Numbered from the stretch's first letter, positions 370-5,005 are shown. The stretch: DNA of 53,201 bases from an uncultured Candidatus Saccharibacteria bacterium (GCA_964415895.1 CAYQCC010000007.1:1-53201); one strand, 5' to 3'. Notes: generated by a model not told the origin, from the letters alone. A program made the numbers and translations.

Positions 370-1395
370 ATGTCCACCCAAACCTATCAATTTCATATTC
401 ATGGAATGCATTGCAATGCGTGCGTTCTTCTGACGGAAAACGAGTTGAAAGATATTCCTAACATCACTTCTGCAAAAGCAAGTCTGAATAATCATTCAGT
501 CGAGGTAGTCGGGGATTTTGGAGACAAAACTCCTGAGCAGATTGCAGAGGAGCTTACGGTTCCATTGAAACCGCTCGGCTATACGGTATCTGTTGAAAAA
601 CAGCAAAGAAAAGGTAACTGGAGCGAGTTCAAAACAGCAGCTCCTATCGCACTTGCATTTGCAGTCCTGTTTGTGTTCCTTCAAAAGATCGGTATGGTAA
701 ATCTGGTGGACGGAGGAAATGTAAACTACAGTACTGCATTCGTCATTGGTATCATTGCTTCGCTCTCCACTTGCATGGCAGTAGTTGGAGGATTACTTCT
801 TTCCATGTCCGCAACCTTTGCAAAGGAAGGTGACAAGATAAAGCCCCAGCTCATGTTCCACGGTGGTCGCCTTGTTTCTTTCTTCATTCTGGGTGGTGCG
901 ATCGGGGCAATCGGATCGGCATTTACTTTGAACACCTCGGCAACGTTCGTCCTTGGAATGGTGATCGGAATCGTGATGCTCATCTTGGGAATCAATCTAC
1001 TTGATGTGTTCCCTTGGGCAAAGCAATTACAGCCATCTATGCCGAAGTTTATCGGAAAGCGTGCTCATGGAGTTTCAAAATACAATCACACCCTTACACC
1101 ACTTTTGGTGGGAGTACTCACATTCTTTCTACCATGTGGATTTACGCAGTCCATGCAGCTCTATACGCTGACCACAGGGAACTTCCTCACAGGTGGACTG
1201 ACCATGCTTGCGTTTGCACTTGGTACGCTCCCCGTACTTGCTATGATTAGTTTCAGTTCGTTTAGTATTCAGAACAATTCAAAAGCAGGAATATTTTTCA
1301 AGACTGCAGGACTCGTCGTTATCCTGTTTGCACTGTTCAATATTATCAACTCATTGGTTGTGCTCGGTCTTATACCGCCAATATTTAATTTCTAG
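370..1395 (+). CDS. Heavy-metal-associated (HMA) domain fused to DsbD_2 / TauE-SafE-like membrane domain
   Basis: N-terminal GMHCNAC metal-binding motif; multi-TM region with STCMAVVGG and FFLPCGFTQ motifs. Confidence 0.85.
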   Translation: MSTQTYQFHIHGMHCNACVLLTENELKDIPNITSAKASLNNHSVEVVGDFGDKTPEQIAEELTVPLKPLGYTVSVEKQQRKGNWSEFKTAAPIALAFAVLFVFLQKIGMVNLVDGGNVNYSTAFVIGIIASLSTCMAVVGGLLLSMSATFAKEGDKIKPQLMFHGGRLVSFFILGGAIGAIGSAFTLNTSATFVLGMVIGIVMLILGINLLDVFPWAKQLQPSMPKFIGKRAHGVSKYNHTLTPLLVGVLTFFLPCGFTQSMQLYTLTTGNFLTGGLTMLAFALGTLPVLAMISFSSFSIQNNSKAGIFFKTAGLVVILFALFNIINSLVVLGLIPPIFNF

Positions 1396-1408
1396 TATAA
1401 TTAAAACT

Positions 1409-1801
1409 ATGAAGATAATAATTATTTCAATCTTGGTCGCACTAATCCTCGTTGGAGGAGCGTTCATGCTGACAAAAGAAAAAAGTGAACCGAAGGCAGA
1501 TACAGCCCCAGTAAATAATGTGTCCATCATAGATGGCAAGCAAATTATTACTATTACTGCCAAAGGAGGTTATAAACCAACTAATAGTGTTGCGAAAGCA
1601 GGTATCTCAACGATTATTCGTTTTGATACTAGGGGAACATTTGATTGTTCATCATCGGTAAACATCCCAAGTATGAACATTTCAAAAATATTACCACAGA
1701 CAGGATCTACAGATATCGATATTGGGATACCGGGGGTAGATGCGCTCCAAGGAACATGTGGAATGGGGATGTATCCATTTTCGATTACGTTCCAAGAATG
1801 A
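1409..1801 (+). CDS. Cupredoxin-domain protein with N-terminal membrane anchor
   Basis: Start moved to ATG 1409 (MKIIIISIL, hydrophobic anchor); C-terminal CGMGM motif and an upstream Cys (FDCSS). Confidence 0.8.
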   Translation: MKIIIISILVALILVGGAFMLTKEKSEPKADTAPVNNVSIIDGKQIITITAKGGYKPTNSVAKAGISTIIRFDTRGTFDCSSSVNIPSMNISKILPQTGSTDIDIGIPGVDALQGTCGMGMYPFSITFQE

Positions 1802-1901
1802 TTAAGACACTTCCGTCAGGAACGACGGTAATTCTTTCATAAAGAAAATATGATGAGATTCCTCGAGTATTAAGGTTCGAACAGCCCTGAACTGGGCGAG
1901 C
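1802..1901 (-). repeat. att-like site B / relic recombinase tail
   Basis: Plus-strand AGGTTCGAAC..CGAGC, 26 nt from TTCGAA to GAGC; minus frame LAQFRAVRTLILEESHH...VS* open for 32 codons and ending 1 nt from the cupredoxin stop. Confidence 0.6.
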
Positions 1902-1906
1902 TAATC

Positions 1907-1937
1907 AAAAAACACCTGTTTATAGGGGTGTTTTTTT
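1907..1937. terminator. Bidirectional terminator-like hairpin after site B
   Basis: AAAAAACACC-TGTTTATAGG-GGTGTTTTTTT. Confidence 0.7.
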
Positions 1938-1960
1938 ATAAAAGGTATATAATAAACTAT

Positions 1961-3226
1961 ATGTTTGCTTACTTAATTCTTGAGATAGTTACAGGTATTA
2001 TTGGCTTATTAGCATTAATTGTATTAATGGTCCATTTGTATAAAAAACCTACCATTCATAAAATTGTAAAACAGCGAGGGATTTATATTCCGATAATATT
2101 ATTTATTGTTGCAGTTTTTGCAGGGTTAATTGCAAACCGTACCTATCCACCAAATTTTGCAATGCCTGTATTTATGCATTCACATGCACCAGGTGGTGTT
2201 CCTGCATCTATTCCTTTTAATAAAATTATAGATTTTTTTATTCATAAAAATCATTTTGAGAAAGTTGCCGATATTTCAACTGACCCAGCATCTGTACCGT
2301 CAACCCCACAGCTTCCAGATGCAGATGGAATTGTCCGCATTCATTTAACTGCAAAGGAAGTTATTTCAGAAATAGCACCAGGAATTTATTTTAATTATTG
2401 GACATATAATGGACAGGTACCTGGTCCGATGTTAAGAGTACGTGAAGGTGATACAGTCGAGTTATCATTAACGAATGATCCATCAAGTTTGCATCACCAT
2501 AATATTGATTTACATGCCGTTACTGGTCCAGGAGGCGGTGCATCAATTACTGATGTAAATCCAGGGGAGACAAAAACATTCAGATGGAAAGCCTTGAATC
2601 CAGGATTGTACGTGTATCATTGTGCAATGCCAAATGTCAGTACACATAATTCACATGGGCAATATGGTTTAATTATGGTTGATCCAAAAGATTCTACTAT
2701 TGGATTATCCAAAGTAGACCATGAGTTTTATATCATGCAGGGTGAATTATATACTGAAGGGCAATTAGGAAAACGTGGGTTGGTTCCATTTGATTCAGAT
2801 GCATTACTTGCAGGAGATCCAAACTATGTAGTGTTTAACGGTAAAATTGAAAGCGCTCCACGAATACATGCAAAGGTTGGTGATACAGTACGTATGTATG
2901 TTGGTAACGGTGGGGTAAATTTAATTTCATCGTTCCATGTAATTGGTGAAATTTTTGACAAAGTATATCCAGAAGCTGCAATAGGTGTCGGGTCATCGGT
3001 ATTTAAAAATGTACAAACAACTGCAGTATTGCCAGGAGGCGCAACAATAGTTGAATTTACAGTTGATGTACCAGGAAAATTTCTATTAGTAGATCATGCG
3101 CTCGCTCGGATGAATAAAGGGGCTTGGGCGGTTCTGGAGGTAACAGGAGATGAACAACCAAGTATTTTTTCTAAAACCAAATCCTTAATGGAGACTGTTC
3201 CTGCAGAAATGGAACATATGCAATAA
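1961..3226 (+). CDS. nirK: Copper-containing nitrite reductase (AniA-like), N-terminally membrane-anchored
   Basis: HNIDLH, YHC, SSFHVIG and VDH motifs supply the type-1/type-2 Cu ligands and catalytic Asp/His; hydrophobic N-terminus; likely start ATG 1961. Confidence 0.9.
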   Translation: MFAYLILEIVTGIIGLLALIVLMVHLYKKPTIHKIVKQRGIYIPIILFIVAVFAGLIANRTYPPNFAMPVFMHSHAPGGVPASIPFNKIIDFFIHKNHFEKVADISTDPASVPSTPQLPDADGIVRIHLTAKEVISEIAPGIYFNYWTYNGQVPGPMLRVREGDTVELSLTNDPSSLHHHNIDLHAVTGPGGGASITDVNPGETKTFRWKALNPGLYVYHCAMPNVSTHNSHGQYGLIMVDPKDSTIGLSKVDHEFYIMQGELYTEGQLGKRGLVPFDSDALLAGDPNYVVFNGKIESAPRIHAKVGDTVRMYVGNGGVNLISSFHVIGEIFDKVYPEAAIGVGSSVFKNVQTTAVLPGGATIVEFTVDVPGKFLLVDHALARMNKGAWAVLEVTGDEQPSIFSKTKSLMETVPAEMEHMQ

Positions 3227-3261
3227 AAGTATGGTGTATTCTAAAATCATTTAGTTACCAT

Positions 3262-3335
3262 AGTTACCTTACATTACCCTTACTAACCTCTGTATATCTC
3301 TCACACAGGTTCGAAGTGTAACCGATAGGCGGAGC
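3262..3335. repeat. att-like site A (putative attL), encodes the last 21 aa of the recombinase
   Basis: Ungapped direct repeat of 12642-12715; 3314-3335 vs 12694-12715 match at 21/22 nt. Confidence 0.85.
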
Positions 3336-5005
3336 ATAGTAGAAAAAACAGACGAAAACTCGTCTGTTTTTTCGTTAGACGATGTAAACAAAGGAGTTTT
3401 ATTAGGTTCGAACTTTGGATTCTCACTCTTCATTGTAATGAATCCATCCAAGAGTGCTTGAACCGATTTTGTATTGATAATACTAATCATTTCATCATTC
3501 CAGACTAGGTTCGAACGAAGTTTAGTAAGAATACTTCTTTTAGAATTAATCTGACCCTTACGCATAACGAATATAAACTCTTCAGCAAGATTAACTATCT
3601 CATTCGCACGAATAGTCCAATCAAGACTCACAGGCTTCTCTGAGGGCTTGTAGCGGGTCTCCAGGTCCAGTAAGTCAGATTTATATTCGTCATCAGTTAT
3701 CATTTTTTCGGCAAGCATCTCTCGGAGCCGTTTCTTTTTTGATTGATAGTCGGTAGCTTCTTTTTGTAGGATTTCTTCCTTGAAGAGGTTTCTATTAACC
3801 TCTTCATCTCTCATTTCCTTAATATGCTTTCTGCACCAGTCTGCAAGTTCTGAAGAAAGAGGTATTTTTTCTCCAACTTCTTTTATTAGGTAATCGGTTA
3901 GTCTTTCATCGCTTACAGATTTGTATTTGAGACCATTCTTCTTTTTCGAATTATTGTAATAATACGAATAATCAAGATACTTAGGGTTTTTCATCTCATC
4001 TATAGGTGTATTACATTGGGGGCAGTGTGTTTTATCCCTATGTGCAAATTTTTTCTTACAATCACAGATGACTTGGTATTTCTTATCAAGACCAATAAAA
4101 TCATTCTCTGGAGAAATTACAAAACCAGAAAATGTAGCCTCGTGTTTCTGAGTCTTCGGGATATTTCTTTTGCCGAGAATCATTTTGATTTCATTATGCT
4201 CATCTTCGGTAATAAGCCTAGGTAAGCTTTTGTCTAGCTCATATCTTTCACCCCCATAAAAGAAGAAGCCTGCATAGGTAGAATCTTTCAAAATTTCATA
4301 TATTCGTGAGGACTGTATTAGTTTGCCTCCAATCTTTTTTCGCTTTACAGTAGTCAATTTAAGCTCTTCTACGGCATACTTATAGAGCTTGCCAGCAGAA
4401 AATTCTTTAGTAAGAAACATCTTTAGAAGAATTTTAACTTTTTCTAACGTTGGCTCATCCACTAGCCATTTTCTATTTCCTTTCTCTTCCGTTTTATCAT
4501 TCAAGAAGCCTAGTGTTGCTACTCCGTGGGGAACACCAATAGAAGCTTTTTTAGCCTGACCTCGTTTTACATTTACTGAAAGGTCTTTAACAAATTGTTT
4601 GCCTTGACCAAACTCTACTGCTAGAACAATCACATTGTCCCAAGGGTAATAAACCTTGTCGTGGGTAATAATAGCTTTTAATACTCCTGAACTCAGGAGG
4701 TCGATAATCTTTCCACCCTCAGTCATATTTCTTGCCAGTCGGTCTGGCTTCCAACAAACTATTGTATCTACCTGACCTTTTTCAATCATCTGTATAAGGC
4801 TGGTAAACCCAGGACGAGCAAATTCTTTCTTTGCAGATTTTGATTCTTCAAATGTCTCAATAAAATCAGGAAGCTTATAAAAATCCACTATTCGCTTCGC
4901 TTCATCTTTTTGAGATTCAATAGAAAGCATCTGCCTATCTTCAGCCTCAGATGACTTTCTGTTGTAACTAGCAGGTTTTAGTTTTGTGAAATCTATATTA
5001 TTCAT
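3269..5005 (-). CDS. Large serine recombinase (resolvase + recombinase + Zn-ribbon/coiled-coil)
   Basis: YNRKSS catalytic Ser motif, DRLARN motif, CDC...CPQC Zn ribbon, coiled-coil region. Confidence 0.92.
   Translation of the reverse strand: MNNIDFTKLKPASYNRKSSEAEDRQMLSIESQKDEAKRIVDFYKLPDFIETFEESKSAKKEFARPGFTSLIQMIEKGQVDTIVCWKPDRLARNMTEGGKIIDLLSSGVLKAIITHDKVYYPWDNVIVLAVEFGQGKQFVKDLSVNVKRGQAKKASIGVPHGVATLGFLNDKTEEKGNRKWLVDEPTLEKVKILLKMFLTKEFSAGKLYKYAVEELKLTTVKRKKIGGKLIQSSRIYEILKDSTYAGFFFYGGERYELDKSLPRLITEDEHNEIKMILGKRNIPKTQKHEATFSGFVISPENDFIGLDKKYQVICDCKKKFAHRDKTHCPQCNTPIDEMKNPKYLDYSYYYNNSKKKNGLKYKSVSDERLTDYLIKEVGEKIPLSSELADWCRKHIKEMRDEEVNRNLFKEEILQKEATDYQSKKKRLREMLAEKMITDDEYKSDLLDLETRYKPSEKPVSLDWTIRANEIVNLAEEFIFVMRKGQINSKRSILTKLRSNLVWNDEMISIINTKSVQALLDGFITMKSENPKFEPNKTPLFTSSNEKTDEFSSVFSTMLRLSVTLRTCVRDIQRLVRVM
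3343..3372. terminator. Terminator-like hairpin inside the recombinase 3' coding region
   Basis: AAAAAACAGACG-AAAACT-CGTCTGTTTTTT, perfect 12-bp stem. Confidence 0.65.

What the first reader, a model, noticed from the sequence alone, without database searches (positions are those of the whole stretch)
2615..2668. NirK with Gln replacing the type-1 copper axial Met
Seen: YHCAMPNVSTHNSHGQYG (CAA at 2660-2662) aligns to AniA-type YHCAxAPVGMHIANGMYG. The Cys and His ligands, the type-2 His residues and the catalytic Asp/His are all retained. Established: the axial ligand of CuNiR is Met; Gln axial ligation (stellacyanin-type) lowers the redox potential. Inference: this is a natural low-potential NirK, plausible in a fermentative symbiont that lacks the usual high-potential donors.
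Basis: partly seen in the sequence, partly recalled or inferred. Interest (0 to 1): 0.65.

Follow-up and report, generated by a model that had tools for sequence, protein, structure and literature searches.

The report
Nitrite reductase with glutamine copper ligand
This gene from an ultra-small (Patescibacteria/CPR) bacterium encodes a membrane-anchored copper nitrite reductase whose electron-entry copper site has glutamine where methionine normally sits; the swap is real, fixed across a large clade and probably lowers the site's redox potential, but one solved precedent exists in Thermus.

Summary
ORF 1961-3226(+) is a class II (AniA-like) NirK, and CAA at 2660-2662 (Gln234) aligns without gaps to AniA's axial Met. 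All other copper ligands and the catalytic Asp/His/Ile are retained. It is not a sequencing error. Contigs from four studies carry the same bases. All 120 closest protein clusters, 29 species genomes and 106 loci overall have Gln, coded by both CAA and CAG. The Gln enzymes form one fully supported clade nested among Met- or Leu-bearing Patescibacteria NirKs. The clade also fixed Asn230 and Ser227 in the ligand loop and a Met/His motif (FAMPxFMHSHAPGG) after its two-helix anchor. This 98%-complete genome has no plastocyanin/azurin-type cupredoxin, c-type cytochrome, NOR/oxidase, UbiA or complex I hits. The "low-potential NirK" reading fits known chemistry (rusticyanin M148Q, -104 mV) but was not measured. 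The adaptive story is not shown: Met-type sisters occur in similar genomes, and about 8 of 30 Gln-type genomes do have a cupredoxin. Gln-ligated type-1 copper is already solved in TsNirK (6HBE, 2019). The two CPR nirK papers I checked describe the sites as conserved, and my searches found no mention of the Gln. Verdict: new variant of a known kind, moderate interest.

The parts
1961..3226 (+). nirK: 421-aa membrane-anchored class II copper nitrite reductase (an alternative GTG start lies at 1928)
   Evidence: TIGR02376 scores 304 bits against a cut-off of 296.3. The AF2 core has pLDDT above 90, and Foldseek gives target-normalised TM-scores of 0.95 to 6THE and 0.92 to AniA.
1964..2140 (+). N-terminal two-helix transmembrane hairpin (residues about 2-60) that places the catalytic domain outside the cell
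   Evidence: The AF2 model has helices at 2-36 and 39-60. The sequence is hydrophobic, with a K/R-rich connecting loop.
2156..2197 (+). Juxtamembrane Met/His motif FAMPVFMHSHAPGG (residues 66-79), conserved in the Gln clade and absent from the Met-type CPR sisters
   Evidence: the Gln-clade consensus is NrTY.P.FAMP.FmHSHAPGg, while the Met-type sisters read xxYPFxLKTFGPS. The model is of low confidence here.
2498..2515 (+). HNIDLH: His180 (T1), Asp183 (catalytic), His185 (T2)
   Evidence: These columns are invariant in alignment A1; codons are given.
2615..2668 (+). Type-1 copper ligand loop YHCAMPNVSTHNSHGQYG: His220 (T2), Cys221, His229, Gln234
2660..2662 (+). CAA, Gln234, at the axial-ligand position
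   Evidence: Across 29 species genomes the codon is CAA in 20 and CAG in 9.
2639..2650 (+). Clade-specific loop substitutions Ser227 and Asn230 (the residue after the His ligand; Ile, Val or Met elsewhere)
   Evidence: The separate Gln lineage P0168 has Gln at the same His+1 position.
2936..2944 (+). His326 (catalytic His) and Ile328 (catalytic Ile)
   Evidence: Invariant.
3095..3097 (+). His379, the third T2 copper ligand
   Evidence: Invariant.
370..1395 (+). Upstream neighbour: HMA (MxCxxC) domain fused to a DsbD_2 membrane protein, a probable metal (Cu) trafficking protein. It is not a conserved partner of nirK.
   Evidence: Pfam hits and CopZ-like hits. One search (35 loci) found it with nirK only in L004.
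1406..1801 (+). Upstream neighbour: anchored Cupredoxin_1-like protein with Cys...CGMGM and no His. It is therefore not a blue-copper electron carrier and is more likely a Cu(I) handler.
   Evidence: and the sequence. It recurs near Gln-type nirK in 5 other loci of 107.

Best explanation
The gene encodes a genuine NO-forming copper nitrite reductase (NirK, class II/AniA-like). A two-helix hairpin anchors it in the membrane with the catalytic domain outside the cell. Its type-1 (electron-entry) copper is bound by His180, Cys221, His229 and the side-chain oxygen of Gln234 instead of Met sulfur, which makes a stellacyanin-type site. The type-2 catalytic site is canonical (His185, His220, His379; Asp183, His326, Ile328). 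The Met-to-Gln change arose once at the base of a large Patescibacteria clade and is kept by purifying selection. It came together with Asn at His+1, Ser at His-2 and a juxtamembrane Met/His motif. By analogy with every Met/Gln pair measured so far, the T1 potential should be roughly 100 mV lower than in Met-type NirKs. That would favour electron flow from T1 to T2 and make classical high-potential donors poorer reductants, which fits an organism that has none of them. Shown here: the identity of the residue, its conservation, its phylogeny, the fold, and the absence of the classical donor families tested. Inferred: Gln coordination, the size and direction of the potential shift, nitrite reductase activity, and the nature of the electron donor (unknown).
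For: The Gln aligns without gaps to AniA's axial Met at E about 1e-95, and all other ligands are invariant. The protein passes the NCBIfam equivalog cut-off for Cu nitrite reductase (304 against 296.3 bits). The AF2 core is confident and superposes on class II NirK cores (TMt 0.95 and 0.92). Gln is present in 120 of 120 close clusters, 29 of 29 species genomes of the clade and 106 of 106 loci. The codon varies synonymously, CAA 20 and CAG 9. The Gln clade is a single clade (100/100 support) and is sister to Met/Leu CPR NirKs, also when the ligand-loop columns are removed. Six positions are specific to the clade (Tyr143, Ser227, Asn230, Gln234, Glu297, Leu357), three of them in the T1 loop. Identical DNA occurs in runs from four studies, and fragments with no differences occur in wastewater RNA-seq runs, one covering the Gln codon. 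The genome has no hit to PF00127, cytochrome c, heme-copper oxidase/NOR, UbiA or complex I families. Gln O-ligation of a NirK T1 site is crystallographically established in TsNirK (PMC6400189). Rusticyanin M148Q is 104 mV below wild type (PMC11881046, Table 1).
Against: There is no measurement of potential, spectra or activity for any member of this clade. No coordinates were available from the model, so Gln-Cu geometry was not checked. Second-sphere effects can offset an axial-ligand effect, so the absolute potential is unknown. The link between donors and ligand type is weak. Met- and Leu-type NirKs sit in comparable CPR genomes. About 8 of 30 Gln-type genomes carry a PF00127 cupredoxin, mostly with Met. 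No gene is consistently linked to Gln-type nirK in 107 loci. The RNA evidence consists of a few short contigs and could include DNA carry-over.
Confidence: 0.72

Rival explanations
1. The Gln was fixed for robustness and not for redox matching. An amide oxygen cannot be oxidised to a sulfoxide and binds Cu(II) more strongly. The swap would then protect or stabilise an exposed, membrane-surface T1 site in oxic, nitrosative or copper-poor wastewater and groundwater habitats, and the potential shift would be a side effect.
For: The enzyme faces outward on a cell without an outer membrane (TM hairpin). The gene is found in wastewater, activated sludge and freshwater metagenomes. The comparison of donors against ligand type does not discriminate. 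A Met/His motif that could bind copper co-occurs with Gln.
Against: Other Met residues are kept near-invariant in the same domain (M157 in 28 of 29), and a Met-rich arm was gained, which argues against general avoidance of Met.
Confidence: 0.15
2. The substitution is functionally near-neutral and became fixed by founder effect in a gene that spreads horizontally among CPR bacteria. The enzyme would behave like any class II NirK.
For: The gene is patchy (3 of 401 sampled Patescibacteria genomes carry the Gln type). It sits in variable contexts and cassettes, so a single successful mobile allele could explain the dominance of Gln. Leu and Ala variants also exist in the family.
Against: Gln is invariant across sequences down to about 58% identity, with synonymous codon turnover. 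Loop substitutions changed with it. A second, phylogenetically separate Gln lineage also has an amide at His+1. Met-to-Gln needs two base changes. Measured Met/Gln swaps in other blue-copper proteins are not neutral for potential (PMC11881046).
Confidence: 0.08
3. The protein is NirK-like, but nitrite reduction is not its physiological reaction. It might reduce O2, dismutate superoxide, or make NO as a signal or weapon against the host.
For: The genome has no NO reductase and no respiratory chain, so classical denitrification is excluded. CuNiRs are reported to have oxidase and SOD side activities (abstract of PMC5755574, listed). Danczak et al. also question the role of the gene (PMC5581439).
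Against: The complete nitrite-binding and proton-delivery set (Asp183, His326, Ile328) is invariant, and the protein passes the equivalog model. NO production by nitrite reduction is still the NirK reaction.
Confidence: 0.05
4. The Gln codon is a sequencing or assembly error, or the gene is a pseudogene.
For: None was found for this gene. One relative (G178, locus L083) carries an in-frame TAG.
Against: The bases are identical in contigs from four independent studies. Gln is present in all relatives of the clade. The 421-aa frame is intact.
Confidence: 0.01

Closest known systems
AniA of Neisseria gonorrhoeae and other class II NirK cores (PDB 1KBV, 5TB7, 2ZOO, 6THE, 3ZIY)
   Same: The catalytic core is 50-55% identical. 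The T1 loop has the same length (C-x7-H-x4-X), and the T2 His3 and Asp/His/Ile catalytic residues are identical. The two-cupredoxin fold matches (TMt 0.92-0.95).
   Different: The axial residue is Gln, not Met, and Asn follows the His ligand where AniA has Ile. The anchor is an N-terminal two-helix hairpin with a Met/His motif, whereas AniA is lipid-anchored (from my own knowledge). The host has no cytochrome c or cupredoxin donors.
TsNirK of Thermus scotoductus SA-01 (PDB 6HBE; Opperman et al. 2019, PMC6400189)
   Same: It is a natural NirK whose T1 copper next to the catalytic site is ligated His2-Cys-Gln. The structure is solved, the site is stellacyanin-like, and the enzyme is active.
   Different: TsNirK is a distant lineage (E 2.6e-32 against 1e-95 for AniA). 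It has Ser in place of the catalytic Asp, a longer Cys-to-His spacing (Cys115, His125), and an extra C-terminal Met-type cupredoxin domain that feeds the Gln site. The window protein has two domains, keeps Asp183 and has no fused donor domain.
Stellacyanin (plant phytocyanin) type-1 copper site
   Same: By sequence, the predicted ligand set is the same: His2-Cys-Gln.
   Different: Stellacyanin is an unrelated single-domain plant electron carrier. Here the site is the entry point of a two-copper enzyme.
Engineered axial Met-to-Gln variants: AcNiR M150Q (Kataoka et al. 2003, cited in bioRxiv 10.1101/2022.04.07.487406; paper not held) and rusticyanin M148Q
   Same: The same ligand swap in the same kind of site. 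Rusticyanin drops from 667 to 563 mV (PMC11881046).
   Different: Those are laboratory point mutants without compensating changes. Here the swap is natural, ancient and accompanied by the Asn230 and Ser227 substitutions.
CPR/Parcubacteria nirK clade (Danczak et al. 2017, PMC5581439; Adv Sci 2025, PMC12931201)
   Same: The same gene family in the same organisms. A distinct CPR clade, patchy distribution and an unknown electron donor are already reported.
   Different: Both papers describe the copper-binding or catalytic residues as conserved. I found no mention of the Gln ligand in the passages I retrieved.

Membership tests
Copper-containing nitrite reductase (NirK, TIGR02376, EC 1.7.2.1) | Score above the curated equivalog cut-off | tested here: met
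   304 bits against a cut-off of 296.3.
Copper-containing nitrite reductase (NirK, TIGR02376, EC 1.7.2.1) | Two tandem cupredoxin domains with the NirK fold | tested here: met
   The AF2 core has pLDDT above 90. Foldseek gives TMt 0.95 to 6THE and 0.92 to AniA.
Copper-containing nitrite reductase (NirK, TIGR02376, EC 1.7.2.1) | Type-2 Cu His3 plus catalytic Asp, His and Ile | tested here: met
   H185, H220, H379, D183, H326 and I328 are invariant.
Copper-containing nitrite reductase (NirK, TIGR02376, EC 1.7.2.1) | Type-1 Cu ligands His-Cys-His-Met | tested here: not met
   H180, C221 and H229 are present, but the fourth ligand is Gln234. TsNirK shows that this does not exclude NirK function (PMC6400189).
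Copper-containing nitrite reductase (NirK, TIGR02376, EC 1.7.2.1) | Homotrimer with T2 Cu at subunit interfaces, and nitrite-to-NO activity | not testable with these tools
   Only a monomer was modelled, and no assay was possible.
Class II (AniA-like) NirK | Closest to AniA/PhNiR/RpNiR cores, with loop spacing C-x7-H-x4-axial | tested here: met
   The best PDB hits are all class II. The loop alignment is ungapped and the protein sits inside the class II tree.
TsNirK-type three-domain NirK | Gln axial ligand at the T1 site next to T2 | tested here: met
   Gln234.
TsNirK-type three-domain NirK | Ser replacing the catalytic Asp, and a C-terminal cupredoxin domain | tested here: not met
   Asp183 is retained. 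The protein ends about 20 residues after the core, and Pfam finds no third domain.
Two-domain multicopper oxidase / laccase | H-C-H motif and the HxH pairs of a trinuclear copper cluster | tested here: not met
   The sequence reads H220-C221-A222. Only three T2-type His residues are conserved. The MCO equivalogs in NCBIfam score far below their cut-offs.
Stellacyanin-type (His2-Cys-Gln) blue copper site | Gln Oe1 coordinated to Cu, with stellacyanin-like spectra and a lowered potential | not testable with these tools
   Only the ligand set can be read from the sequence. Spectroscopy and electrochemistry are needed.

The most novel reading that the evidence does not exclude
The Gln clade is a distinct functional class of NirK. 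It would be a membrane-tethered enzyme whose low-potential Gln/Asn-tuned T1 site and juxtamembrane Met/His arm form an electron-entry module fed by a non-classical donor, with no cytochrome c, blue-copper protein or quinone involved. Candidate donors include a flavin- or thiol-based export route or a NOX/b5-type pair. This would give otherwise fermentative, cytochrome-free CPR episymbionts an extracytoplasmic electron sink with nitrite as acceptor.
Probability: 0.22. Interest if true: 0.75.

Novelty: new variant of a known kind. Interest (0 to 1): 0.5.

Why it matters
Axial-ligand tuning of blue-copper sites is a textbook case of how proteins set redox potentials, but in nitrite reductases it has been studied almost only with point mutants. 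This clade is a large natural experiment. It spans hundreds of sequences in at least 29 species genomes. Gln is fixed together with second-sphere changes, and the catalytic site is otherwise canonical. Met- and Leu-bearing sisters are available as built-in controls. The clade also bears on an open question: what nirK does in CPR bacteria, which lack respiratory chains. If the T1 site is tuned to a lower potential, the search for its donor should move away from the plastocyanin-type carriers proposed in the literature. Two published CPR nirK surveys state that the copper sites are conserved, and that statement needs correcting for this clade.

Tried and rejected
1. Sequencing error was rejected.

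2. A substitute axial Met was rejected. No Met in the catalytic domain is both invariant in the Gln clade and specific to it.

3. I looked for a conserved neighbouring gene that could be the electron donor in 107 Gln-type loci and found none. The most frequent neighbours were ribonucleotide reductase (18 loci), a PNPOx-like protein (12), a 4-Cys ArsR regulator (9), an ECF-riboflavin S-component-like protein (9) and the Cys/Met cupredoxin-like protein (6).

4. I compared PF00127 cupredoxins in Gln-type and Met-type CPR genomes. The result does not discriminate: about 8 of 30 against 1 of 5 real hits (two other Met-type hits fall on ORFs of NirK length, one at the nirK locus, so they look like the NirK itself), and MAG incompleteness adds uncertainty.

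5. The viral-contig scan gave only one distant (53% identity) hit, which I did not examine further.

6. A quick-tree AU test seemed to allow all Gln sequences to form one clade, but the free search there had missed a better tree. A careful tree without the loop columns rejects that grouping (delta lnL 35, p-AU 0.005).

7. No model coordinates were available in the Python box, so Gln-Cu geometry could not be measured.

8. The Kataoka 2003 paper on AcNiR M150Q is not held, so I give no numbers from it.

Full report
**Observation**

The window has an ORF at 1928(GTG)/1961(ATG)-3226 on the + strand. Bases 2615-2668 read YHCAMPNVSTHNSHGQYG, and CAA at 2660-2662 codes Gln234 in the 421-residue numbering from ATG 1961. 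Pfam finds the two multicopper-oxidase cupredoxin domains. phmmer against PDB puts AniA of Neisseria gonorrhoeae (1kbv, 5tb7) first at E about 1e-95, followed only by class II copper nitrite reductases. The ligand loop aligns without a gap (yhcampnvsthnshgqygli against yhcavapvgmhiangmygli), so the Gln falls exactly on AniA's axial Met. The protein exceeds the curated NCBIfam equivalog cut-off for copper nitrite reductase (304 against 296.3 bits).

In a 60-sequence alignment spanning the Gln clade, its Met sisters and diverse class II enzymes, the following are invariant: His180, Cys221 and His229 (T1), His185, His220 and His379 (T2), Asp183, His326 and Ile328. An AlphaFold2 model has pLDDT above 90 over residues about 100-400. 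It superposes on class II cores with target-normalised TM-scores of 0.95 (6THE) and 0.92 (AniA). The model also shows two N-terminal helices (2-36 and 39-60), which form a membrane hairpin.

**Not an error, and not chance**

All 120 closest 90%-identity clusters (72-100% identity, named Patescibacteria where named) carry Gln. In species-representative genomes, 27 loci from one scan and 2 more from a phylum sample carry Gln. Their genomes are all 0.5-1.5 Mb. A back-translated THNSHGQ(Y/F)G pattern finds 85 metagenome stretches. Across the 110 sequences examined, I found a Gln-type nirK ORF in 106.

The codon is CAA in 20 and CAG in 9 of the 29 genomes, and Asn230 varies between AAT and AAC, so the residues are maintained under synonymous turnover. 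Logan contigs of runs from four different studies match the window over 2400-2900 with no difference in the loop. Short fragments with no differences occur in three wastewater RNA-seq runs, one spanning the Gln codon. This is weak evidence of transcription.

**Distribution and origin**

Among the 150 best 50%-identity representatives of the whole family, the regex count gives 124 Met, 5 Gln, 4 Leu, 1 Ala and 1 spurious His match (P0210). Another 15 had no regex match and were re-read by pairwise alignment. A 97-row tree, and a careful 54-row tree built without the ligand-loop columns, both recover the Gln enzymes as one clade (SH-aLRT 100; UFBoot/SH-aLRT 100/100). This clade is sister to a group of Patescibacteria NirKs that carry Met (or Leu in L029), and the two together have 98/89 support. 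So the swap happened once within the CPR nirK radiation.

One further Gln sequence (P0168) groups with a Leu and a Met enzyme elsewhere in the tree. A quick-tree AU test did not separate it (where the free search was poor). The careful tree rejects a single Gln clade (delta lnL 35, p-AU 0.005). The caveat is that P0168 is a long, compositionally odd branch.

The gene is rare and patchy. Eight of 401 sampled Patescibacteria genomes have any NirK-like hit, and three of those are Gln-type.

**What changed along with the Gln**

Six positions are specific to the clade: Tyr143, Ser227, Asn230, Gln234, Glu297 and Leu357. Three of them lie in the T1 loop. Asn230 directly follows the His229 ligand, where other NirKs have Ile, Val or Met. 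The separate lineage P0168 has Gln at that same position (HQTLGQ). This suggests that an amide at His+1 is coupled to the axial Gln.

The Gln clade also has a conserved juxtamembrane motif, NRTYxPxFAMPxFMHSHAPGG (residues 59-79). The Met-type CPR sisters keep the membrane hairpin but lack this motif.

**Context**

The genome is 804 kb and 98.5% complete. It gave no hit to the following families:
- plastocyanin/azurin (PF00127)
- cytochrome c (PF00034, PF13442)
- heme-copper oxidase/NOR (PF00115)
- UbiA (PF01040)
- complex I antiporter-like subunits (PF00361)

The positive controls for these searches worked. The genome does have a thioredoxin reductase and a weakly NDH-2/SQR-like flavoprotein.

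The comparative argument does not hold. About 8 of 30 Gln-type genomes do encode a PF00127 cupredoxin, and Met-type CPR genomes mostly lack one. In 107 Gln-type loci no neighbour is conserved. The window's upstream pair is an HMA-DsbD_2 protein and a His-less Cys/CGMGM cupredoxin-like protein. The cupredoxin-like protein recurs in only five other loci, and the pair looks like copper handling and not an electron donor. Earlier notes of this scan describe nirK here as one cassette of a serine-recombinase island. Consistent with that, the X1 and X3 contigs are only about 1.4 kb and end near 1885 and near 3280 and 3334.

**Mechanism**

Gln Oe1 ligation of a NirK T1 copper is crystallographically shown in TsNirK (PMC6400189). 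Stellacyanin and Met-to-Gln mutants have lower potentials than their Met counterparts (rusticyanin 667 to 563 mV; AcNiR wild type 240 mV; PMC11881046).

I therefore infer a His2-Cys-Gln T1 site with a potential about 100 mV below Met-type NirKs, feeding a canonical T2 nitrite-reducing site. This is an inference. No spectra, potentials or activities exist for this clade, and I could not inspect model coordinates. The donor remains unknown.

**Comparison with the literature and novelty**

CPR nirK is known (PMC5581439, PMC12931201), and a natural Gln-ligated NirK is known (TsNirK, 2019). TsNirK is a distant three-domain enzyme with Ser in place of the catalytic Asp and a fused Met-type cupredoxin. 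The window enzyme has two domains and keeps the canonical Asp and His.

The two CPR papers state that the Cu-binding or catalytic residues are conserved. I found no mention of Gln in them or in full-text searches.

Several earlier follow-ups in this scan reached the same conclusion on other genomes. I read them only after my own analysis and did not use them as support.

I rate this a new variant of a known kind, of moderate interest.

Noticed in passing
L102 (genome G419) and L103 (genome G315), ORFs starting near 1225: Two Gln-type-nirK genomes encode a membrane-anchored, 179-180-aa plastocyanin-family cupredoxin whose ligand motif is C-SVGQ-H-RKNG-Q. Its axial ligand is therefore also Gln. 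Homologous cupredoxins in other CPR genomes (L096, L100, L101) have Met. This may be a matched low-potential donor-acceptor pair.
   Followed up: partly
L084, L085, L086 (genomes G340, G301, G182): A Met-type NirK core (57% identity over residues 179-406) lies inside open frames of about 1,300 aa in three Patescibacteria genomes of one family. This looks like a giant NirK fusion protein.
   Followed up: no
L029, L043, L047 (second copy), P0123, P0140, P0209, P0254, L087/L088; P0141: Natural class II NirK-like proteins with Leu (several apparently independent lineages) or Ala at the axial position. These sites would be three-coordinate and presumably high-potential. L029 is a Patescibacteria sister of the Gln clade.
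   Followed up: partly
window 1885-3334: Logan contigs of runs X1 and X3 that carry nirK are only 1,396 and 1,450 bases long. They end at about 1885 and at about 3280 and 3334, which is at the repeated sites earlier notes call cassette boundaries. nirK therefore assembles as a separate unit in other samples.
   Followed up: no
window 3288-3358: In metatranscriptome X25 the 31-32-nt stretch 3303-3335 (the repeat or att site at the recombinase gene's 3' end) has far higher contig depth (up to 80-117) than nirK itself.
   Followed up: no
window 370-1801; also L004, L121, L172, L178, L142: The window's upstream gene pair is an HMA-DsbD_2 membrane protein and an anchored cupredoxin-like protein with no His but conserved Cys...CGMGM. 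The cupredoxin-like gene lies near Gln-type nirK in five other loci; the full pair was confirmed only in L004. It is a candidate Cu(I) delivery module.
   Followed up: partly
L002, L003, L013, L114, L161, L175 and others (cluster 5): A 117-132-aa ArsR-type HTH protein with four conserved Cys (CPDC...HCFEEC) occurs in 9 of 107 Gln-type loci. In 6 of them it lies directly upstream of nirK on the same strand. It is a candidate dedicated regulator.
   Followed up: partly
clusters 2, 3, 6, 8: Genes related to flavins and ribonucleotide reductase recur near Gln-type nirK: a PNPOx-like FMN protein in 12 loci, an ECF-riboflavin S-component-like membrane protein in 9 (adjacent and divergent in 8), an FAD_binding_4 oxidase in 7, and ribonucleotide reductase in 18.
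   Followed up: partly
L083 (genome G178, contig C10, 7684-8895): The Gln-type nirK of a same-order relative has one in-frame TAG. It may be a pseudogene, an assembly error or recoding.
   Followed up: no
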